A stretch of 32,210 bases of DNA. Source: Candidatus Micrarchaeota archaeon (lineage in GTDB: Archaea > Micrarchaeota > Micrarchaeia > Micrarchaeales > CABMGC01). Location of the stretch: assembly GCA_964462345.1 (NCBI GenBank), contig CAYWXC010000001.1, positions 1 to 32,210 of the forward strand. Direction: 5' to 3'. How positions within the stretch are numbered: the stretch's first letter is position 1; each line of letters starts with the position of its first letter. Shown here piece after piece: positions 2,757 through 27,025 of the stretch. The position numbers were made by a program, and so were the translations under genes. Under the pieces are notes generated by a model that made no database searches, was not told where the DNA came from, and worked only from the letters and a program-made list of their open reading frames with translations.

Positions 2757-3364
2757 TGACTGAGCTCTCTAACAAGCCCATGAGGGGCAGCTTCCTTGAA
2801 TGTCTGTGAATGGAATTTGTAGATAGCTACATCATGCGATTTCCAAAGGTGCTTCTCAAGTCCAGCCCCAACGCACAGCTCATTGAGCAATTCTTCTATT
2901 CCAAATCCCTTATCAATAGCTTCCATTGGCAGGATGACATTGCTATTGTAACCATATTTGAGCATGAGCCCATCCCTGCCTATCTTAATGGCCTTTTTAA
3001 TATCCTCAGCCTTTCCTGCTATCTTCATTGGTCTTGTCAGCAGGCTGACTTCAACAACCATCTCATCAAATTCTAGGTGGGATATCGGTACATGTTTAGG
3101 ATCTTCAGTAGATGCCGCTATTGCAGCTTCGGGAAGCATCCTCTTGATCTTCCCTATTGGCCTCAAGAATCCCATCCTTCCCCTCGGGCTTCCTGTAGGA
3201 TAATGCTCTATGCTTACAAAAATTCCTATCTCATCATCAAATTCGGAGAGCCTTCTCTCTATTAATCTGATATTGAATATTGGCGAAGATATGAATAACT
3301 CTATCGAATTCCTGGCTTCACGCACAAGCTTTTCGCCTTCTTCAACCGAGAACCTCCTCATCAT
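2753..3364 (-). CDS. AMMECR1-domain protein
   Basis: 203 aa. The GIFVSIEHYP...PRGRMGF, EDPKHVPIS, EVSLLT, GRDGLML and NVILPMEA...LCVGAGL pattern follows the AMMECR1 consensus (G.FVT...LRGCIG...DPRF.P...VSvLt...G.hGl...LLPqVa). The usual Cys of RGCIG is Arg here. Confidence 0.7.
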   Translation of the reverse strand: MMRRFSVEEGEKLVREARNSIELFISSPIFNIRLIERRLSEFDDEIGIFVSIEHYPTGSPRGRMGFLRPIGKIKRMLPEAAIAASTEDPKHVPISHLEFDEMVVEVSLLTRPMKIAGKAEDIKKAIKIGRDGLMLKYGYNSNVILPMEAIDKGFGIEELLNELCVGAGLEKHLWKSHDVAIYKFHSQTFKEAAPHGLVRELSH

Positions 3365-6161: not shown

Positions 6162-7657
6162 TCCCTTACCAATCTATTCGATATACAGTATGCTCCTTCT
6201 AATTTTCTCTGCTCAGAGGAATTGCTTATTCTTGACAGCAGATTGGATGCGGATGTATAAACGCCGTTGTAATAATTGGGGCATGTCACATTTGCTATAA
6301 TGCCTTCGCGCATCACTGTGTAAATGCTGATAACCGAAGAGCTATAGCTGCTCTCAGAATATGGGAATGAGCTCTGATATACAAAAAATTCTGTACCATT
6401 TGAAAGCAGGTCGTAAACCCTGCTAGTAACAGAATCATTATTGAAGAAAGTCGCATCTCCAAGAAGAGCGCCATTTGATAATAATTCTTTTGTTATGCTT
6501 GAATTCACGTTCGTTAGATAAATCACTATTGGGGATGAGCCTATACTCTTATTTGACAGTATGACAGCGGCTGAGTTGCCGTTTGTCGCAGTTAACGTTA
6601 TGAATCCAGATAGGTTTAATTGGGAATTCGATAATCTTGCCACGCTCTGGTTTGTGAACTTGAATGCAGATGCTGAAGAGAGGATTGAAGGACTAACATT
6701 CAGCGATGTGTAATAATTCATTGTAAATGCTAAGATCAGCAGAGAGGAGAACACTGATATAAATATGCCTGCCTTATGGTTTGTAGTAGCTTTGAATACC
6801 CTTCTCTTACTAAAACGGGGCATTTCCAATCCGTATTTCTTAGCAACAAATAGCATGACTACTATCGAAGCATAAAATAGCAGAATTCCAGCCACAACAT
6901 GTATAGAGAGAATTACACTACTTGGTCCGCCGAATAGCCATGCTGCAGCTATGCTTAACATCCTGACAAAATTGAGCAGTATGACCAGTATTACGCTTGA
7001 AGCCACCCAAATGGCCTTTTTCGAATTATTTCCATCATAAAAATAAGCAATTGGTATCATGAATAAGGCTATCGCAATCAGGGCTCCCACACCAACGCAA
7101 CTCTGCCCTATGCTTATGTTAATTCCATTGGCGCTTATTGTTGTTGGTGCAAGGTAACTTATCTTCGCAAAGATGCTCAATAAAAAGTAAACAAGCTTTG
7201 TATTTAGTGCAGCAAACCCTTGATTTAATCTGATTAAGGGAATTAGTAATATTGGAGAAGCAGCAAGCGGATAAATCATCAATGGCCTCATATTATTGAT
7301 ATTCTTCGTTCCGAAGAGAAGAATAACAAGAGAGCATGCAAATAGGGGAAACAAAAGCATCTCTATCTTGTAGCTAGTAAATGCGAAGGAGAATAATATG
7401 TTGAGATAAATAAGGGCAACTATGAAAATCGCCATTCCTAGTATCCCAAATGCTATATCCTCTTTTCTAACATTCGGGTGTATGCGCTTCTTCGCCATGA
7501 ATAATACTAATAATGGGAACATAAGCAAAGGTATTATGACGTATGTCGATGGATCCGTATCACTTATCGTGAATGACGTTGTCATAATTATATTTGCAAT
7601 AGCAAAAAGTATCGATATAAAGAGTATCGCAAATGCTATTCTGCTATCATATTTCAT
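6158..7657 (-). CDS. Exosortase/archaeosortase-family polytopic membrane protein with a ~200-aa Ser/Asn-rich C-terminal extracytoplasmic domain
   Basis: 499 aa. The N-terminal ~270 aa has about 8 TM segments. It carries the family triad in the expected order and spacing: IGQSCVGVGAL (Cys187), LNFVRML (Arg232), SIHVVAGILLF (His253). The C-terminal part has many N-x-S/T sequons. The stop overlaps the Nudix-UDG start by 4 nt. Confidence 0.5.
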   Translation of the reverse strand: MKYDSRIAFAILFISILFAIANIIMTTSFTISDTDPSTYVIIPLLMFPLLVLFMAKKRIHPNVRKEDIAFGILGMAIFIVALIYLNILFSFAFTSYKIEMLLFPLFACSLVILLFGTKNINNMRPLMIYPLAASPILLIPLIRLNQGFAALNTKLVYFLLSIFAKISYLAPTTISANGINISIGQSCVGVGALIAIALFMIPIAYFYDGNNSKKAIWVASSVILVILLNFVRMLSIAAAWLFGGPSSVILSIHVVAGILLFYASIVVMLFVAKKYGLEMPRFSKRRVFKATTNHKAGIFISVFSSLLILAFTMNYYTSLNVSPSILSSASAFKFTNQSVARLSNSQLNLSGFITLTATNGNSAAVILSNKSIGSSPIVIYLTNVNSSITKELLSNGALLGDATFFNNDSVTSRVYDLLSNGTEFFVYQSSFPYSESSYSSSVISIYTVMREGIIANVTCPNYYNGVYTSASNLLSRISNSSEQRKLEGAYCISNRLVRE

Positions 7658-20455: not shown

Positions 20456-20702
20456 GAATCAAGATTAAGCAGTTTTGGCATTATTTGAAGAATCATTTCA
20501 ATCTCTAAATGTTTTATCTTGACTTTCTGAGTCCCATAAAATCCCGATGGAAAGCGAAGACAAATATCTCCACCGCTCCTTTCAAGCTTATATTTTATCT
20601 GAGATTTCCATCTTTATTAACGCCAACAGATTATATCTATCCATCCTCTATCATTAATTATCTGCTTAAAAACTTTTATATCTTATGTTTAACTTACTAG
20701 TA

Positions 20703-21305
20703 TAGGGAGTTGACATCTACATTCAATCACCTCGTCAATACCAAAACTCTCACATCACGTATCTTATCACATATGCGAGAAGACAAGAAAATACATAGAT
20801 TGAAACCCTTTTCAGACCCACAAACCTGTTCTTTGCCATTCCAAAGACCTCTTTGAGTCTTGAGAAAATACGTTCTATTGCCCACCTCTTCCCGTAATCT
20901 GGATCTTTTGGCGTTTCTGATTTTCTCCACCGCCTTCCGTTTCTGGATATGAGAGGAACTATTCCGCATCCCCTACATTCTTCTTTTATGTCAGCAGAAT
21001 CATATGCAGAGTCTGCAAGATACTTTGCATGGTAGCTGAAAGCAAATGTCTCCCCAACATACCCAAAAATTTTTGCAAACAGTGTCTTGTTATGTTTGCA
21101 GGTTCTATAGAGAACCCTAAAGGTATTTCGTGCTCAACCTCTGCCATTATGTGTATCTTGTATCCGAATCCGAGGACCTTTGCCTTTTCCTTGAAATCTT
21201 CCTGTTCCCTTTTTGACGGTGTTCTGTGTTCTCACCTTGCGGTCATTGCCGCTAGGTCGGAGGAATTAACATAGTAGTTCTTATCTAAAAGGGCGTTATT
21301 TTCAA
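20703..21305 (-). mobile_element. 5'-truncated, decayed IS4/IS5-superfamily element (transposase relic plus one terminal repeat)
   Basis: Hand translation of the minus strand gives ...NSSDLAAMTAR*EHRTPSKREQ..KVLGFGYKIHIMAEVEHEIPLGFSIEPANI, then a frameshift, then DKTLFAKIFGYVGETFAFSYHAKYLADSAYDS...DYGKRWAIERIFSRLKEVFG...YVIRYVM*. It carries the Y-2-R-3-E-6-K signature. The terminal 36 nt (20703-20738) match the end of the element at 25904-26965 at 33/36 positions, in inverted orientation. Confidence 0.7.
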
Positions 21306-21365
21306 TGGGTTTTTAACCAAAAGATTTAAATATCTTATTCTTCACTTATTTATTGCTGGTTTTAG

Positions 21366-21384
21366 AAAACTTTATAAAAGTTTT
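21366..21384 (+). promoter_or_regulatory. Palindromic TATA region upstream of tfb
   Basis: AAAACTTTATAAAAGTTTT is a perfect 19-bp palindrome centred on the TATA-like TTTATAAAA, ~54 nt upstream of the ATG. A GGTGGT Shine-Dalgarno-like element lies at 21418-21423. Confidence 0.4.
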
Positions 21385-21428
21385 TACAGAAAAGCGCAAT
21401 CATATTTAAAATTCAATGGTGGTTAAGA

Positions 21429-22439
21429 ATGGCAGACAAGAAGATTAAAAAACATGCCAAGAGAGTTTTGGGCGAAGGTCAATTTGAGGAAGATCAGAGA
21501 GGCCAAAGAGGAGCACAGCCATCCCCAACAGAGAATGTAAGACGATGTCCTAGCTGTAAGAGCCTTGATATAATATTTGATAATGAAAGAGGAGAGTACA
21601 TATGCAACAGTTGTGGTCTTGTAATAGAAGAGAATATAGTAGATTCAGGACCAGAGTGGAGAGCATTTGATTCTGACCAGAGAAATGCAAGAGCAAGAAC
21701 TGGTGCTCCGATAAAATACACAAAGCCAAACAGAGGGCTTGTGACAGAAATTGATATGTATAACAAGGATATCAGAGGAACGAAGCTGCCATCGAAGAGG
21801 CAGGCACAGCTCTACAGAATGAGAAAATGGCACAAGAGAGCAAGCATAGCAAACTCCAGCGAGAGAAACTATCTTGTAGCATTGCCAGAATTGAACAGAG
21901 TAGCAAGTTATCTTGGTTTGCCAGACAATATCAGAGAACAGGCTGCGCTTCTTTATAGACAGTGTGTAAAGAATAACCTTATCAGAGGCAGACCTATCGA
22001 GACAGTAGTAAACGCTGCATTGTACGCAACATGCAGGAGTGCAGGAATGCCCAGAACACTTGATGAGATATCTTCAATATCAAACGTTCCGAAGAAAGAG
22101 GTTGGTAGGACATACAGAGTAATAACACACGAACTAGGACTGAAGATACCACTCACAGACCCATCAGCATATGTGCCAAGGTACATAGCTGCATTGAAGC
22201 TCAGCGGAGATGCGCAGGAAAAAGCGTCCGTGCTTCTTAAGCAGGCAATGAAGAAAGGCCTTGTAAGCGGAAGGAGTCCGACAGGAGTATCTGCTGCTGC
22301 AGTTTACATTGCAGGAGCCTTGGTTGGTGAGAGAAGAACCCAGAAAGAAGTGGCGGATGTGGCAGGAGTCACAGAAGTCACTATCAGAAATAGATATAGA
22401 GAGCTTAAGAAAGAACTTGAGCTTGACGTGAATCTCTGA
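21429..22439 (+). CDS. tfb: Transcription initiation factor IIB (TFB)
   Basis: 336 aa. Zn-ribbon CPSCKS...CNSCG, a B-reader/linker region (GPEWRAF...), and two cyclin-fold repeats. The C-terminal HTH reads QKEVADVAGVTEVTIRNRYREL. Confidence 0.93.
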   Translation: MADKKIKKHAKRVLGEGQFEEDQRGQRGAQPSPTENVRRCPSCKSLDIIFDNERGEYICNSCGLVIEENIVDSGPEWRAFDSDQRNARARTGAPIKYTKPNRGLVTEIDMYNKDIRGTKLPSKRQAQLYRMRKWHKRASIANSSERNYLVALPELNRVASYLGLPDNIREQAALLYRQCVKNNLIRGRPIETVVNAALYATCRSAGMPRTLDEISSISNVPKKEVGRTYRVITHELGLKIPLTDPSAYVPRYIAALKLSGDAQEKASVLLKQAMKKGLVSGRSPTGVSAAAVYIAGALVGERRTQKEVADVAGVTEVTIRNRYRELKKELELDVNL

Positions 22440-22452
22440 TTAGAGGGAGAAG

Positions 22453-22896
22453 ATGGATAAGAGGGTTTTTATCTCCCTTTTCTTCCTTATTTCTATTCCT
22501 TTTGCAGCGCATGCCATTAATTCTGGCATATCTGCGAACAACTATACATTCCATGATGCTAATTCAATAATAAATAGCACTGAGCAGTACATACACCAGA
22601 TTAACGAGAGCGGCTATCTATTTATCAATCCAGATTTAAGTTCTGCTTACAGTTATCTTGACAAGGCAAAGGCTATAGCCCACTATTCACCAGTAGCGGC
22701 AATATCCTATGCAAATCAGGCAGAAGATTCTGCTGCATCTGCATACGCATACATACGATCTTTTTATGAATACGCGCTATTAGGAATAACATTGTTTACT
22801 TTAGCCATGGCTGTGCTTCTTTACAGATTCATGAAGCCAGTAAATACCACTAAAGACATTAAACGAAGAAAGTCTGCTAAGAAGAAAACTAGATAA
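22453..22896 (+). CDS. Secreted, C-terminally membrane-anchored protein, unknown function
   Basis: 147 aa. An N-terminal signal peptide (FISLFFLISIPFAAHA), a C-terminal TM helix (ALLGITLFTLAMAVLLYRF), and a basic tail (KRRKSAKKKTR). Confidence 0.5.
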   Translation: MDKRVFISLFFLISIPFAAHAINSGISANNYTFHDANSIINSTEQYIHQINESGYLFINPDLSSAYSYLDKAKAIAHYSPVAAISYANQAEDSAASAYAYIRSFYEYALLGITLFTLAMAVLLYRFMKPVNTTKDIKRRKSAKKKTR

Positions 22897-23893
22897 CCGC
22901 ACTCTCGGTAAGCTCAAAGCTTTGTTCTGCCATGTTTGCAGATATCCTTGCATTTATACCATAAGGAATGGTAAACATTGGCGTTGTATGTCCGAAATCC
23001 ATACCTGAAATAATAGGGAAGTCATATCCTTTTGTTGCCTCTATTATTATTTTATCAAGAGGGTAATTTTGGTCATCTGTTTTATACTCAAGGTCATTTG
23101 TTCTTCCAACAATCATGCCTTTAATCTCATCCAAGATTCCAAGCATCTTCATTTGGTGCAGGGATCGGTCTGTCAGTGCCGTTGTGCTTTCTGTATCCTC
23201 CCAGAATAATATCTTATCTGAGAAATCTGGAAGATACTCAGTTCCTGCCAAATCAAGAAATGTAAATATGTGACCTCCGACAAGCTTCCCTTCTGCGCTG
23301 CCCTCCTTTAGAGTCTTCCAAGCAGTAGCATAGAGCTTATCTTCTGGAATCTCAAGCTCCCTTAGAAATGTGAATCTGCTTGAAGGCATTATTTTTAATC
23401 GGTCATTTTTCTCGGTGAGCACCTTATTGAAGTAGTTCAAAGTGTATCCAGGATCTTCTCCGGGAAGTGCAAATCGCGTATTGAGGTTCGGACCATAAAA
23501 TGTTGCCAGCCCTGTTTTTGTGTGTATTGCGCAATGGAGGAAAGTTATGTCACTGAAGCCGCAGAATATTTTGGGGTTCTTTCGGATTATGTTGTAATCT
23601 ATGGAATCGAGTAGCTCGTTTGAATTATAACCACCTCTGGCTGTTATTATGGCCTTGATTTCCTTGTTTTCAAACATCTCCATCAGATCAGCAAGGCGTT
23701 CTTCTGAAGTGCCAGCTTTATGCCCAAGGTCCTTGTTATAATTTCTGCCAAAATGTACCTTGTAACCCATCGATTCAAGCTGTCTAACTTTGAGATTTAC
23801 AAGATCTAATCTGTTCTTTGTTAGGGGAGAAGCTGGAGTTATGACACCTATTGTATCTCCTTTCTTCAGAGATTCTGGCTTGATAACCTCCAT
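22889..23893 (-). CDS. Peptidase S66 family (LD-carboxypeptidase LdcA / MccF-like)
   Basis: 334 aa. GDTIGVITPASP, ARGGYNSNELL, the nucleophile context CGFSDITFLH, the Glu context ILFWEDTES...DRSLHQM, and the His context MDFGHTTPMFTIPYG. Confidence 0.85.
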   Translation of the reverse strand: MEVIKPESLKKGDTIGVITPASPLTKNRLDLVNLKVRQLESMGYKVHFGRNYNKDLGHKAGTSEERLADLMEMFENKEIKAIITARGGYNSNELLDSIDYNIIRKNPKIFCGFSDITFLHCAIHTKTGLATFYGPNLNTRFALPGEDPGYTLNYFNKVLTEKNDRLKIMPSSRFTFLRELEIPEDKLYATAWKTLKEGSAEGKLVGGHIFTFLDLAGTEYLPDFSDKILFWEDTESTTALTDRSLHQMKMLGILDEIKGMIVGRTNDLEYKTDDQNYPLDKIIIEATKGYDFPIISGMDFGHTTPMFTIPYGINARISANMAEQSFELTESAVI

Positions 23894-23932
23894 ACAAGAT
23901 CAATTTTTACATTAGATGGAACATCTAAAATA

Positions 23933-25216
23933 CTACCTGCGGATTATATCTCCATATGTAGCTTTGAATAAGCTTGCAGAGATGTTTTGCATTGCTTCTT
24001 CTAGGCTCTCAGTCTTTGATGTTGAAGCTACTTCCACACCATTCCTGTAGTCTTTTGCTGGCACGTACAGTGACATAGCACGCCTTAAGCGTTCATCTTC
24101 AGTCATGGCGCTGATCTTTTGGGATGGAAATATCTGAGATAATATAGAATATAGTATCTCGCTTTCCCGTACGCTATGCCATGCATTATTAAGATCGAAA
24201 ATGGGCATCAATATTCCAAGCTCTCTTTTAAGCGCGTTTTCAAGACCTTGCGCTTCTTCGGGAAAATATTTCTCAGTAGCCCCATATCTCTGTGTGAAGA
24301 TTACCTTATCAGATAATGCCAACGTGAAGAGAGCTAAAGGATATCCATATCTTGGAGTTAGAGTTGCCCTTACCGAATTATTTATGATATCTTCAGGAGT
24401 AATTAGCGCTCCTCCGTTTTGCTGAAAGCCTCTTTCTGCCATGCTCTTCCTAAGCAATGTGCTTCTACCGGATGAATCTATCACACGTATCTCTGGCACA
24501 ATGTACCCGTTTGCTAATAACTCCTTTAACACATCGCTATATAGCCCATTTATTGAATTTCCACCGCTTTCAGATACGATATTCCTTGATATTGCCCTAT
24601 GAAAATCTACAAGAGAAATTCCATTGCTTGAAGGACCCCTTGCAAAACCTGAAGGTAGATCATTCTCAAAGACACGCTCTATTCTCGCCTTAAGTCCGGC
24701 CTGAATTGGCTGAAGATGTTGCAAAGCTATTTGTACTCCTTCTTGCGGCTTTCCTACCCCTATGCTAAATACTCTTTCACCATTTGGTACTACTATTGTA
24801 AAATAAGATGATTTCTCAACGCTCAGGCAAGTCATATCATCAATAGTGTATGTTGCTATTGCGGCTCTGGAGGAATAACCTTCTTTATTAAGCATCTCTG
24901 AAAGGACATTTCCCACAAGCTGGAAAACAACATTCTCAAATCTAGGAGTCGCTATCTGCCGGGCATACAATATGCTAGTCTCGCCTGGCTTGATTAAGCC
25001 ATGATCAGCGGCTATTTCTTCAATCCTGTTTATAGTTAGTGGTATATTGCTCTGCTCTAGAAATCTGTCTGAAACTTCTGCAACTGCTCCGCTCCTTTTC
25101 AGCCTCAAAAGTGCTGCCATCTCACCGAATTCAGAGTAAAAATGTCTAGCCGCATGAGATCCATCTTTGAAACTAGACCTGGCTGGCTCTCTATTCAATC
25201 GCACATTAGCTGCCAT
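23933..25216 (-). CDS. Hypothetical protein (427 aa), no recognisable motif
   Basis: A long uninterrupted ORF, co-directional and tightly spaced with its neighbours: 11 nt from the upstream gene and 39 nt to the S66 peptidase gene. No P-loop, Rossmann or metal-binding signature was seen by eye. Confidence 0.6.
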   Translation of the reverse strand: MAANVRLNREPARSSFKDGSHAARHFYSEFGEMAALLRLKRSGAVAEVSDRFLEQSNIPLTINRIEEIAADHGLIKPGETSILYARQIATPRFENVVFQLVGNVLSEMLNKEGYSSRAAIATYTIDDMTCLSVEKSSYFTIVVPNGERVFSIGVGKPQEGVQIALQHLQPIQAGLKARIERVFENDLPSGFARGPSSNGISLVDFHRAISRNIVSESGGNSINGLYSDVLKELLANGYIVPEIRVIDSSGRSTLLRKSMAERGFQQNGGALITPEDIINNSVRATLTPRYGYPLALFTLALSDKVIFTQRYGATEKYFPEEAQGLENALKRELGILMPIFDLNNAWHSVRESEILYSILSQIFPSQKISAMTEDERLRRAMSLYVPAKDYRNGVEVASTSKTESLEEAMQNISASLFKATYGDIIRR

Positions 25217-25227
25217 GCAATCACGTA

Positions 25228-25635
25228 TTAAAATGAAAGTTTAGAGCCTCTGGCAGTACTGCCAAATGCACGAACTTTATCTAATTCGGCAGAAACTGCC
25301 GCGTCAAGATCTTTAATGCTACTCCCACTGTTTAATGCATTTTCTGCAGCGCTATTTCTTGCTTGTGAAGCAGCAGCGTTTGCAGATTCTGCAACTGCAG
25401 GGATACCAACATTATAAGTTGCTAGGCGTTCATACCATCTCGCAGCAGTACCAAAGAATACTGCAGAATTAAAGAGTTGGCCTTCGGCTTGCGCTTTTAT
25501 GGCCTTTGATATATATGACTCGGCCCTGTCTGCGATATTATTGTCAGAAATTATCTGAAACCCATTTCTATCTACTTTTATATATTCTCTTTCTTGAGCC
25601 TTTGGCTCTTTTAAAATAATACCCATATAAATCAC
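25228..25635 (-). CDS. Hypothetical small helical protein with an Ala/Ser-rich C-terminal half
   Basis: 135 aa, first gene of the 25635-22889 minus-strand unit. An alternative start is the ATG three codons in (MGIILKE...). Confidence 0.5.
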   Translation of the reverse strand: MIYMGIILKEPKAQEREYIKVDRNGFQIISDNNIADRAESYISKAIKAQAEGQLFNSAVFFGTAARWYERLATYNVGIPAVAESANAAASQARNSAAENALNSGSSIKDLDAAVSAELDKVRAFGSTARGSKLSF

Positions 25636-25903
25636 TTTACAAACTTTAATCTGAATTAGAAAAACAAATCACAGCGGCAAACGCCGCATTTAGTTCCATT
25701 TTATAAAAAGAGTATTGTTGGGTCTATTGACCCAATATCTGAATAAGGATAAGATTAACATTACTAATGCAAGAATAAACATTATCTGCTTTGAATGAAA
25801 TCTGCATAATTTAATTATTTTATTACAGTTATTTAAAGCTTTTCTTCAAAGTGGGGTGTCCCACAACTCCTTAAAAACTTCCACTAATCCCGAAGGATTA
25901 TAA

Positions 25904-26965
25904 TAAGAACTTGACAAATTAATAATCTTATTGTTGAATATGTTCATTGGAGTTTTCTCTCTCTTTTCTGTCGTCGGAAATTGGTAGTGGAGAGTCTCCT
26001 GAGCAACAGATGCAACGAGCGCATCAGTCGCCTGCCAGGAGAAAGACAACATGGAAATATATGAGATAAAGACTAAAATAGTAGAGGTTTGGGCAGCTGC
26101 ACGGATGATCGTGCAGAAGTATGGACATATGAAGAAATTCGCGAAACATATAGTTGCACTTGTGATAAAACAGAACGAGAACTTAAGAGATATCAAACTC
26201 GCAGAGTTCTTGGAGAAGATTCGATTGGCAAAATCCTTGGTTATCGGAAGAAACCAGACACAACGACATTCTCCAAGGTTAGGGAACGTATGGATCCGCA
26301 GATGATGGAAGATCTGCAACTGTGGATTGTTTCAGATCTTCTGAAAGGAAGGCAGGCGAGGTTAATCGCGCAGGACAGTACCGATGTACCTACATATTCG
26401 CAGAAAGACAAGGAAACAAGATGGGGCATAGAACACCTTCTAGAACGGAACAACTACTGTATAAGTCGGATAAAGGCAAGGAGAAGAAATTCTTCTACGG
26501 GTACAAACCACACATGGTTGTTGATGTGGAAACAGATACGCCAATTGCGGTAATGGTAGTTCCAGCAAACATTAATGACAAAAAACTCTTCGAACCTTTG
26601 TATGAGAAAAAGAGGTAGATTGCAGTATTGCAATACCTCGCAAAGTTCCTTGCTGATGCACAGTACCACTCTTCAAAGATAAGGGCCAGACTCAGGAATG
26701 ATGGCGTAACTCATATCATTCCTTTCAATGGGAATCGGTGGCAGAAGACAGAAAAGCCAAATGATCCTGAATATGGGAAAAGATGGGCTGTTGAGCGCGT
26801 CTTCTCAAGGCTGAAGGGGATTTTCGGTCTTGGATTCAACAGGTTTTTTAGCTTCAGAAAGGCCAGGATCCATTCCCTTTCCTGCGTGATCGGATATCTC
26901 CTCAGATACAATATGTGAAGGTTTTGGATTTGACGAGGTGATTGAATGTAAATGTCAAGTTCCTA
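25904..26965 (+). mobile_element. IS4/IS5-superfamily insertion sequence, full length (~1.06 kb) but with a decayed transposase
   Basis: Terminal inverted repeats TAAGAACTTGACA (25904-25916) and TGTCAAGTTCCTA (26953-26965) match at 12/13. The internal transposase reading frames carry DDE and YREK motifs. No target duplication could be recognised. Confidence 0.75.
26051..26918 (+). pseudogene. DDE transposase (IS4/IS5 type) broken by at least two frameshifts and one in-frame TAG
   Basis: Frame 2: ...KLAEFLEK. It shifts at ~26220 to frame 1: ILGYRKKPDTTTFSKV...LIAQDSTDVPTYSQKDKETRWG. It shifts again in the G-run at ~26428 to frame 0: GHRTPS...FFYGYKPHMVVDVETDTPIAVMVVPANINDKK...KKR. TAG at 26616-26618 is followed by ...FLADAQYHS...YGKRWAVERVFSRLKGIFG. 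Confidence 0.75.
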
Positions 26966-27025
26966 CCTTTTAGAGCTCAAGAAAGCCTTTTAATAACAAA
27001 ACCCCAAGTACATTAGAGGGATTCT

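What the first reader, a model, noticed from the sequence alone, without database searches (positions are those of the whole stretch)
22889..25635. Three-gene operon: two orphan proteins (135 aa, 427 aa) followed by an S66 LD-carboxypeptidase/MccF-like peptidase in an archaeon
The three minus-strand genes are spaced by 11 and 39 nt. The last gene has the full S66 Ser/Glu/His context (GFSDITFLH, FWEDTES, FGHT).

Known S66 enzymes act on murein tetrapeptides (LdcA) or detoxify peptidyl-nucleotide antibiotics of the microcin C type (MccF). An archaeon has no murein, so an immunity or processing role with unknown partners is attractive.

I could not place either of the two upstream proteins in any family. 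I saw no P-loop, no E1/ThiF-like GxGxxG, and no obvious metal site.

Hand counts suggest somewhat higher G+C here: 47% at 24001-24100 versus 41% at 6301-6400. The unit also lies between two IS copies, which is compatible with acquisition by transfer.
Basis: partly seen in the sequence, partly recalled or inferred. Interest (0 to 1): 0.6.

Follow-up and report, generated by a model that had tools for sequence, protein, structure and literature searches.

The report
Peptidase operon with DPANN-specific partner protein
A tiny symbiotic archaeon (Micrarchaeota) carries a three-gene operon in which an MccF/LdcA-type serine peptidase follows a 427-aa protein from an undescribed family, and in salt-loving Nanohaloarchaeota that family sits directly in front of a different peptidase, so it probably works with peptide-trimming enzymes.

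Summary
The three minus-strand genes, their 11- and 39-nt spacers and the S66 Ser/Glu/His peptidase are real. All three genes are under purifying selection in three species of one Micrarchaeota genus. G+C equals the genome mean (0.408). The "two IS copies" are two diverged IS relics that bracket a block also holding tfb, and they explain an inversion, not an acquisition. S66 genes are common in this lineage (23 of 61 relatives). No ThiF/MccB-type enzyme exists in the genus, so a microcin-C-type cluster is not supported.

The new result is that the 427-aa "orphan" belongs to a family with no Pfam or PDB match. It occurs in 1 of 155 Micrarchaeota genera and in 11 of 70 Nanohaloarchaeota genomes. 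In all 9 Nanohaloarchaeota genomes with a standard-length member, one copy is followed at once by a divergent M28-like metallopeptidase. Some loci add AstE/AspA-like, DapF or MR/MLE genes. These are the same enzyme families that recycle murein peptides in bacteria.

Best reading: a cytoplasmic module for trimming unusual small peptides, with the peptidase partner swapped between phyla. The biochemical role of the 427-aa protein is unknown, because both structure predictions failed. The 135-aa protein is genus-specific.

The parts
22889..23893 (-). S66 serine peptidase (334 aa), MccF-like subgroup. No signal peptide, so it is cytoplasmic. Catalytic Ser114, Glu232 and His302.
   Evidence: Pfam PF02016 and PF17676. 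Best PDB matches are 4e5s/BA_5613 at 2.2e-55 and Lmo1638 at 4e-51, at about 35-36% identity. dN/dS is 0.07.
23933..25216 (-). 427-aa member of an undescribed DPANN-restricted family ('family X'). Invariant residues are R86, Q87, D126, E134, K135, Y138, H167, P241, Y292, K316 and D341.
   Evidence: dN/dS is 0.14-0.19 with no indels in three species. Homologues occur in Nanohaloarchaeota and are aligned in A10. There is no Pfam or PDB hit for any member or for the profile. AF2 gave pLDDT 33 and 35.
25228..25635 (-). 135-aa (132 aa from the ATG at 25626) genus-specific protein, predicted soluble, with an Ala-rich helical C-terminal half.
   Evidence: dN/dS is 0.17-0.22. It was found only in the same genus and is absent from 70 Nanohaloarchaeota genomes. 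It matches no family.
25674..25709 (-). Proximal promoter region. It holds a TATA-like TTTTTATAAAA (25699-25709), then the GC hairpin/palindrome GCGGCGTTTGCCGC (25674-25687) followed by a T-run.
   Evidence: Sequence read. Terminator-like hit. The elements are conserved in three species.
25718..25735 (-). Perfect 18-nt palindrome TTGGGTCAATAGACCCAA just upstream of the proximal TATA. It is operator-like or an RNA hairpin.
   Evidence: One compensatory change (U-A to C-G) keeps the pairing in the G001-like species.
25724..25807 (-). Candidate 27-codon small ORF (MQISFKADNVYSCISNVNLILIQILGQ). A TATA-like TTTAAATA lies at 25830-25837, which is -30 to -23 of its ATG. Coding status is unproven.
   Evidence: The 213 nt upstream of the 135-aa gene are 96% (G002) and 92% (G001) identical, against 72-77% identity at third codon positions of the three genes.
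26089..26965 (+). Degraded IS4/IS5-type element (DDE_Tnp_1, frame-shifted) abutting the promoter side of the unit.
   Evidence: Pfam match. Self-comparison.
20703..21228 (-). Second, more decayed relic of a related IS in inverted orientation. Together with 26089-26965 it brackets the block tfb / 147-aa gene / S66 / 427 / 135.
   Evidence: tblastn gives 42-48% amino-acid identity and blastn 70% over 231 nt. The block is inverted relative to G002.

Best explanation
The unit is a native, chromosomal, cytoplasmic operon of one Micrarchaeota (DPANN) genus. Its order is conserved 5' control region, 135-aa protein, 427-aa protein, S66 peptidase.

The 427-aa protein belongs to an undescribed DPANN family (X) whose members are habitually encoded immediately upstream of an exopeptidase. 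That exopeptidase is a divergent M28-like metallopeptidase in Nanohaloarchaeota and an MccF/LdcA-type S66 serine peptidase here.

I infer that X and the peptidase act on the same small peptide-like substrate. This would be a salvage or turnover step for unusual peptides (D-amino-acid-containing, gamma-linked or acidic, as in murein stem peptides). X would carry out a step before or after removal of the terminal residue by the peptidase.

Shown: gene reality, linkage, family membership of the S66 protein, the phyletic pattern, and the swap of peptidase partner.

Inferred: joint function, substrate class, and that X is an enzyme. The last rests only on its invariant polar residues. The 135-aa protein is a genus-specific accessory of unknown role.
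For: - Purifying selection acts on all three genes and there are no indels.
- The trio keeps its order in three species while the neighbours differ. The amidohydrolase lies on either side or is absent, and the block is inverted in the window.
- The 5' region is more conserved than the coding third positions.
- X occurs in 11 of 70 Nanohaloarchaeota genomes.
- In all 9 genomes with a standard-length member, one copy is followed by the M28-like gene, with a 9-70-nt gap or a 4-nt overlap.
- The partner keeps all M28 metal ligands and the catalytic Glu.
- Further neighbours are AstE/AspA-like (three genomes), a GCS2-like ligase, and DapF plus an MR/MLE enzyme.
- By established knowledge, LdcA (S66), MpaA (M14/AstE-like fold), YcjG (MR/MLE) and PepD (clan MH) recycle murein peptides in E. 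coli.
- S66 genes are common in relatives and in other DPANN, where murein-peptide scavenging has been proposed (PMC11537232).
Against: - No structure or family assignment for X was obtained, so its chemistry is unknown.
- Only about four independent gene contexts exist. Synteny inside Nanohaloarchaeota clades is partly inherited.
- One paralogue (G441b) has no peptidase neighbour.
- The Micrarchaeota genus lacks DapF, MR/MLE and the M28-like partner, so a full murein-peptide pathway is not present here.
- The S66 protein lacks the aromatic loop of its closest solved relatives, so its substrate may differ.
Confidence: 0.5

Rival explanations
1. Immunity or detoxification: the S66 enzyme is an MccF-type hydrolase that inactivates aminoacyl-nucleotide antibiotics, and the two upstream proteins are sensors or accessories.
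For: The closest solved relatives are MccF-like proteins and true MccF (2e-55 to 1e-43), ahead of LdcA (1e-23 to 3e-19). Stand-alone MccF homologues are common in bacteria (PMC4010828, PMC12250964).
Against: The genus has no ThiF/MccB. The unit holds no exporter. The candidate small ORF ends in Gln, not Asn. The 'TWSDDxW' loop of the MccF-like structures is replaced by 'SRFTFLREL'. In Nanohaloarchaeota, family X pairs with an M28-like metallopeptidase, which has no known role in such immunity.
Confidence: 0.12
2. X is not an enzyme. It is a non-catalytic partner of exopeptidases, such as a scaffold, chaperone, inhibitor or substrate-delivery protein, or it is itself the processed substrate.
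For: The same family pairs with two mechanistically unrelated peptidases, which a generic adaptor would tolerate. No catalytic motif is recognisable.
Against: Eleven residues, nine of them charged, polar or aromatic, stay invariant at 16-26% identity. This looks more like an active or binding site than a scaffold. An adaptor would have to bind two unrelated folds.
Confidence: 0.23
3. The link is coincidental. X and the 135-aa protein have a function unrelated to the peptidase, and they are adjacent only because these genomes are compact.
For: In the loci examined, S66 genes of other Micrarchaeota have unrelated neighbours. Housekeeping genes (pgk, Trp/TyrRS, KaiC-like) also flank X in Nanohaloarchaeota. 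One X paralogue has no peptidase nearby.
Against: A peptidase directly downstream recurs in two phyla with different peptidase families. The spacing is tight or overlapping. The trio survives local rearrangements.
Confidence: 0.15

Closest known systems
MccF-like S66 peptidases (B. anthracis BA_5613, PDB 4e5s/5fd8; L. monocytogenes Lmo1638, 4h1h; MccF 3gjz/3tla)
   Same: Same two-domain S66 fold and full-length collinear alignment. The Ser-Glu-His triad is in register. Both are cytoplasmic.
   Different: Identity is only about 35%. The Trp-rich 'TWSDDxW' loop is absent. The protein is archaeal, sits in an operon with two proteins that have no bacterial counterpart, and has no mcc genes in the genome.
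LdcA, murein tetrapeptide LD-carboxypeptidase (E. coli; P. aeruginosa PA5198, 1zl0)
   Same: Same S66 family and catalytic triad. A role in trimming scavenged murein peptides has been proposed for DPANN homologues (PMC11537232).
   Different: The match is far below the NCBIfam equivalog cut-off (144.6 against 378 bits) and more distant than to MccF-like proteins. The organism makes no murein.
Bacterial murein-peptide recycling set (LdcA, MpaA, YcjG, PepD)
   Same: Across the DPANN loci, the neighbours of family X come from the same enzyme families: S66, AstE/AspA-like, MR/MLE, a clan MH-type M28-like peptidase, and DapF.
   Different: The genes are spread over different lineages and never occur all together. 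The Micrarchaeota genus has only the S66 member. No bacterial pathway contains a family X protein.
Peptidase family M28 (aminopeptidases and glutamate carboxypeptidases), as partner of family X in Nanohaloarchaeota
   Same: The order of H-x-D, D, E-E, D and H ligands is invariant in the partner family. Pfam PF04389 is hit in 3 of 7 members.
   Different: Scores lie at or just below the Pfam cut-off (20.9 against 21.3 bits for the first member). A profile search of PDB finds nothing. This partner is absent from the window's genus.

Membership tests
Peptidase S66 (MEROPS S66; Pfam PF02016 and PF17676) | Both the N-terminal and the C-terminal S66 domains score above the curated cut-offs. | tested here: met
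   138.8 bits against a cut-off of 25, and 106.5 against 23.7.
Peptidase S66 | The Ser-Glu-His catalytic triad aligns with solved members. | tested here: met
   Ser114 in GFSD, Glu232 in FWED and His302 in FGHT align with the corresponding motifs of 4e5s and 4h1h. Ser114 and His302 are invariant in seven Micrarchaeota S66 proteins.
LdcA (muramoyltetrapeptide carboxypeptidase equivalog NF008424) | The score reaches the equivalog cut-off. | tested here: not met
   144.6 bits against a cut-off of 378.
MccF (microcin C immunity peptidase) | Closer to MccF or MccF-like structures than to LdcA. | tested here: met
   2e-55 to 1e-43 for MccF-like proteins, against 1e-23 to 3e-19 for LdcA.
MccF (microcin C immunity peptidase) | The Trp-bearing substrate loop that covers the nucleotide. 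My recollection of the MccF structure papers is a lead only. What was tested is the motif in the aligned solved relatives. | tested here: not met
   BA_5613 has 'SETWSDDSWY' and Lmo1638 has 'SATWSDDEWY'. The window protein has 'SSRFTFLREL'.
MccF (microcin C immunity peptidase) | Hydrolysis of aminoacyl-(sulfamoyl)adenylates or processed microcin C. | not testable with these tools
   This needs an enzyme assay.
Microcin C-type biosynthetic cluster | A ThiF/E1-like MccB adenylyltransferase. | tested here: not met
   PF00899 is absent from G000, G001 and G002 (G002 is 93% complete). The positive controls were detected.
Microcin C-type biosynthetic cluster | A precursor peptide ending in Asn, and an exporter gene in the cluster. 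| tested here: not met
   The only candidate small ORF ends in Gly-Gln. The unit holds no transporter.
Family X (new; alignment A10) | Full-length collinear alignment with the Nanohaloarchaeota members, with shared invariant residues. | tested here: met
   BLASTP gives 2e-13 over about 400 aa. Profile hits range from 1e-175 to 1e-8. Thirteen columns are invariant.
Horizontally acquired island or composite transposon | Atypical composition, flanking copies of the same IS, and absence from close relatives. | tested here: not met
   G+C is at the 46th percentile. The IS relics are only 70% identical and enclose tfb. The unit is present without IS in G001 and G002.

The most novel reading that the evidence does not exclude
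Family X is a new kind of enzyme (an amidase, peptidase or ligase with an unrecognised fold). It would supply the DPANN-specific step of a pathway that lets host-dependent archaea use murein-type or other D-/gamma-linked peptides from bacteria or hosts as an amino-acid source. The terminal-residue peptidase would be interchangeable: S66 in Micrarchaeota, M28-like in Nanohaloarchaeota.
Probability: 0.25. Interest if true: 0.7.

Novelty: new variant of a known kind. Interest (0 to 1): 0.5.

Why it matters
DPANN archaea cannot make most amino acids and must live off other cells, but how they process what they scavenge is largely unknown. Family X is conserved and lineage-restricted, and it travels with interchangeable exopeptidases. 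In some genomes it also travels with DAP-epimerase, dipeptide-epimerase-type and MpaA-like genes. That makes it a concrete and testable candidate for such a pathway. It also removes one "orphan" from the dark proteome of two phyla. The finding as first framed (an odd S66 gene on an acquired island) is ordinary. The cross-phylum pairing is the part worth following.

Tried and rejected
- Structure prediction of the 427-aa protein failed twice. The alignment had 2 sequences the first time and 3 the second, and pLDDT was 33 and 35. No fold search was therefore run.
- A phmmer search of 1.8 billion representatives gave only P0002 and P0004, plus a spurious hit to a eukaryotic repeat protein, P0003.
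- Word-based searches added nothing. Two metagenome scans found nothing.
- Weak hits to the pyruvate-kinase C domain (Pfam E 0.016) turned out to be genuine pyruvate kinases in other genomes. This is a short local resemblance and was rejected.
- A weak BeeR/actin-like hit (E 0.16) was not reproduced and was rejected.
- The designer-PPR PDB hits to the A10 profile are repeat artefacts.
- hhalign found no relation between X and the S66 proteins or the M28-like partner.
- hhalign found no relation between the 135-aa protein and the 152-aa upstream protein of Nanohaloarchaeota.
- Rfam matched nothing in the 5' region.
- The neighbours of S66 genes in six other Micrarchaeota genomes share nothing with this operon. 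The 416-aa co-directional neighbour in G018 looks, on inspection, like an unrelated Asn/Thr-rich repeat protein.
- The MccF structure papers were not held in the library.
Full report
**Observation**

The window holds three minus-strand ORFs exactly where stated. They are 25228-25635 (135 aa from GTG, or 132 aa from the ATG at 25626 that public gene calls use), 23933-25216 (427 aa) and 22889-23893 (334 aa). The spacers are 11 and 39 nt.

The third protein carries both S66 domains well above cut-off. It aligns over its whole length with solved MccF-like proteins, with Ser114, Glu232 and His302 in register. None of the three proteins has a signal peptide or a membrane segment on inspection, so all should be cytoplasmic.

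**Organism**

The genome is 0.78 Mb and 72% complete. The two closest genomes are MAGs labelled Candidatus Micrarchaeota (LSA5.bin73) and, probably wrongly, Marsarchaeota (FK_Sedi_A_Bin.208). This is a DPANN archaeon.

**Are the genes real and linked?**

- Against the two congeneric genomes, all three genes have identical lengths and no indels.
- dN/dS is 0.17-0.22 for the 135-aa gene, 0.14-0.19 for the 427-aa gene and 0.07 for the S66 gene, at dS up to 0.5.
- One low-coverage contig has a TAG at codon 91 of the small gene. Other assemblies of that species give the intact 132-aa protein.
- The trio keeps its order in all three species while its surroundings change. A 237-aa amidohydrolase lies upstream in G002, downstream in G001, and is not found in the window's (72% complete) genome.
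- The block small gene / 427 / S66 / 147-aa gene / tfb is inverted in the window relative to G002.
- The 213 nt upstream of the small gene are 96% and 92% identical between species. Third codon positions of the three genes are only 72-77% identical to G001.
- This region contains, in order on the minus strand:
  - a TATA-like TTTAAATA placed -30 to -23 of a 27-codon ORF;
  - an 18-nt perfect palindrome that keeps its pairing through a compensatory change;
  - a second TATA-like TTTTTATAAAA;
  - a GC hairpin followed by a T-run.
- Rfam has nothing there. Whether the small ORF is translated, or the region is purely regulatory, is open.

- G+C of the unit is 0.4084 against a genome mean of 0.4081 (46th percentile), and codon usage is unremarkable.
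- There are two IS4/IS5-type relics, at 20703-21228 and 26089-26965, in inverted orientation. They share only 70% nucleotide identity over 231 nt and 42-48% amino-acid identity.
- They enclose the housekeeping tfb gene as well as the operon.
- Because the enclosed block is inverted relative to G002, and relatives have the operon without the IS relics, the IS pair explains an inversion rather than an import.

**S66 in context**

- S66 genes occur in 23 of 61 related genomes (19 of 45 genera), and twice in this genome. The paralogue is 36% identical.
- Their abundance in other DPANN has been noted, with the suggestion that they release alanine from scavenged murein peptides (PMC11537232).
- The window's protein is about 35% identical to BA_5613 and Lmo1638 and 29-39% identical to other Micrarchaeota S66 proteins.
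- It is far below the LdcA equivalog cut-off and lacks the 'TWSDDxW' loop of its closest solved relatives.
- The genus has no ThiF/MccB-type enzyme. A microcin-C-type cluster is therefore not supported.

**The 427-aa protein**

- Single-sequence searches found only the same genus, plus one 431-aa acidic protein (P0004; 23% identity over about 400 aa, BLASTP 2e-13). Public records assign it to Candidatus Nanohalobium / Nanohaloarchaea.
- A profile search then found the family in 11 of 70 Nanohaloarchaeota genomes.
- In Micrarchaeota it occurs in only 1 of 155 genera, even with the deeper profile.
- The 11-sequence alignment keeps R86, Q87, D126, E134, K135, Y138, H167, P241, Y292, K316 and D341 invariant at 16-26% identity.
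- No member and no profile matches Pfam or PDB.
- A tree gives three deep clades with a long Micrarchaeota branch. The Micrarchaeota proteins are near-neutral (pI 6.6) and the Nanohaloarchaeota ones acidic (pI 4.1-4.3). Any transfer between the phyla is therefore old, and its direction is unresolved.

**Gene contexts of the family**

- Clade A of Nanohaloarchaeota: X is followed after 48-70 nt by a 307-316-aa protein.
- Clade B: the order is pgk, X, then the same partner at 9 nt or with a 4-nt overlap.
- The partner family keeps H167, D169, D177, E205-E206, D239 and H285 invariant, which is the M28 ligand pattern. It hits Pfam M28 at 2e-4 to 3e-4, at the cut-off.
- In three clade-B genomes an AstE/AspA-like gene follows, with a GCS2-like ligase in between in one of them.
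- In a long (494-aa) variant, X is followed by DapF (2e-51) and an MR/MLE enolase-superfamily enzyme (5e-42).
- One paralogue has no peptidase neighbour.
- By established knowledge, S66 LdcA, the MpaA amidase, the YcjG dipeptide epimerase (MR/MLE) and the clan-MH dipeptidase PepD are the E. coli murein-peptide recycling enzymes. DapF interconverts the DAP isomers.
- The resemblance is at the level of enzyme families only. The Micrarchaeota genus itself lacks DapF, MR/MLE and the M28-like partner.

**Interpretation**

The most economical reading is that X works with an exopeptidase on a small, unusual peptide, and that the peptidase partner was replaced non-orthologously between the phyla. What X does chemically is unknown.

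The 135-aa protein has no relative outside the genus and no similarity to the 152-aa upstream protein of Nanohaloarchaeota.

The rivals remain open: MccF-type immunity, a non-catalytic adaptor, and coincidental adjacency. They are weighed in their own sections.

**Verdict**

The acquisition and microcin arguments are not. The S66 gene by itself is ordinary for DPANN. The worthwhile result is a new DPANN protein family coupled across two phyla to interchangeable peptidases.

Noticed in passing
window 25636-25848 (minus strand): The 213-nt 5' region of the operon is more conserved between species (92-96%) than the coding third positions (72-77%). It holds two TATA-like boxes, a palindrome with a compensatory change, a GC hairpin with a T-run, and a possible leaderless 27-codon ORF.
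   Followed up: partly
window 20456-27025 compared with L020 (G002): The block tfb / 147-aa gene / S66 / 427 / 135 is inverted relative to the sister species and is bracketed by two diverged IS relics in inverted orientation. The amidohydrolase gene that neighbours the unit in G001 and G002 is not found in this assembly.
   Followed up: yes
window 22453-22896 (+): A 147-aa protein with an N-terminal signal-like segment and a C-terminal membrane anchor overlaps the 3' end of the S66 gene by 8 nt, in convergent orientation. It is conserved next to tfb in G002 but not in G001.
   Followed up: no
L021 (G001) 3135-3137: An in-frame TAG replaces the Gln91 codon of the 135-aa gene in a contig of 1.9x coverage, and the downstream frame stays conserved. 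Other assemblies of the species have the intact gene. It is probably an assembly error or a strain-level nonsense change.
   Followed up: partly
L040-L044 (Nanohaloarchaeota G442, G453, G443, G433): Nanohaloarchaeota carry compact co-directional runs. One is X, M28-like, (GCS2-like), AstE/AspA-like, Trp/TyrRS. The other is X, DapF, MR/MLE. These may form an undescribed amino-acid or peptide salvage operon in that phylum.
   Followed up: partly
L022/L023 (Nanohaloarchaea GCA_042218325.1 and a Logan contig): In two assemblies the family X gene is split into two overlapping ORFs (192 aa plus 268 or 241 aa). This is either a frameshift or a sequencing error.
   Followed up: no
window residues 359-389 of the 427-aa protein: There is a short local resemblance to the pyruvate-kinase C-terminal domain motif (KISAMTEDERLRRAMSLYVPAK against IAITESEVLRRSMCMYYGIK). 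It was judged to be convergent or chance similarity of a beta-alpha-beta unit.
   Followed up: partly
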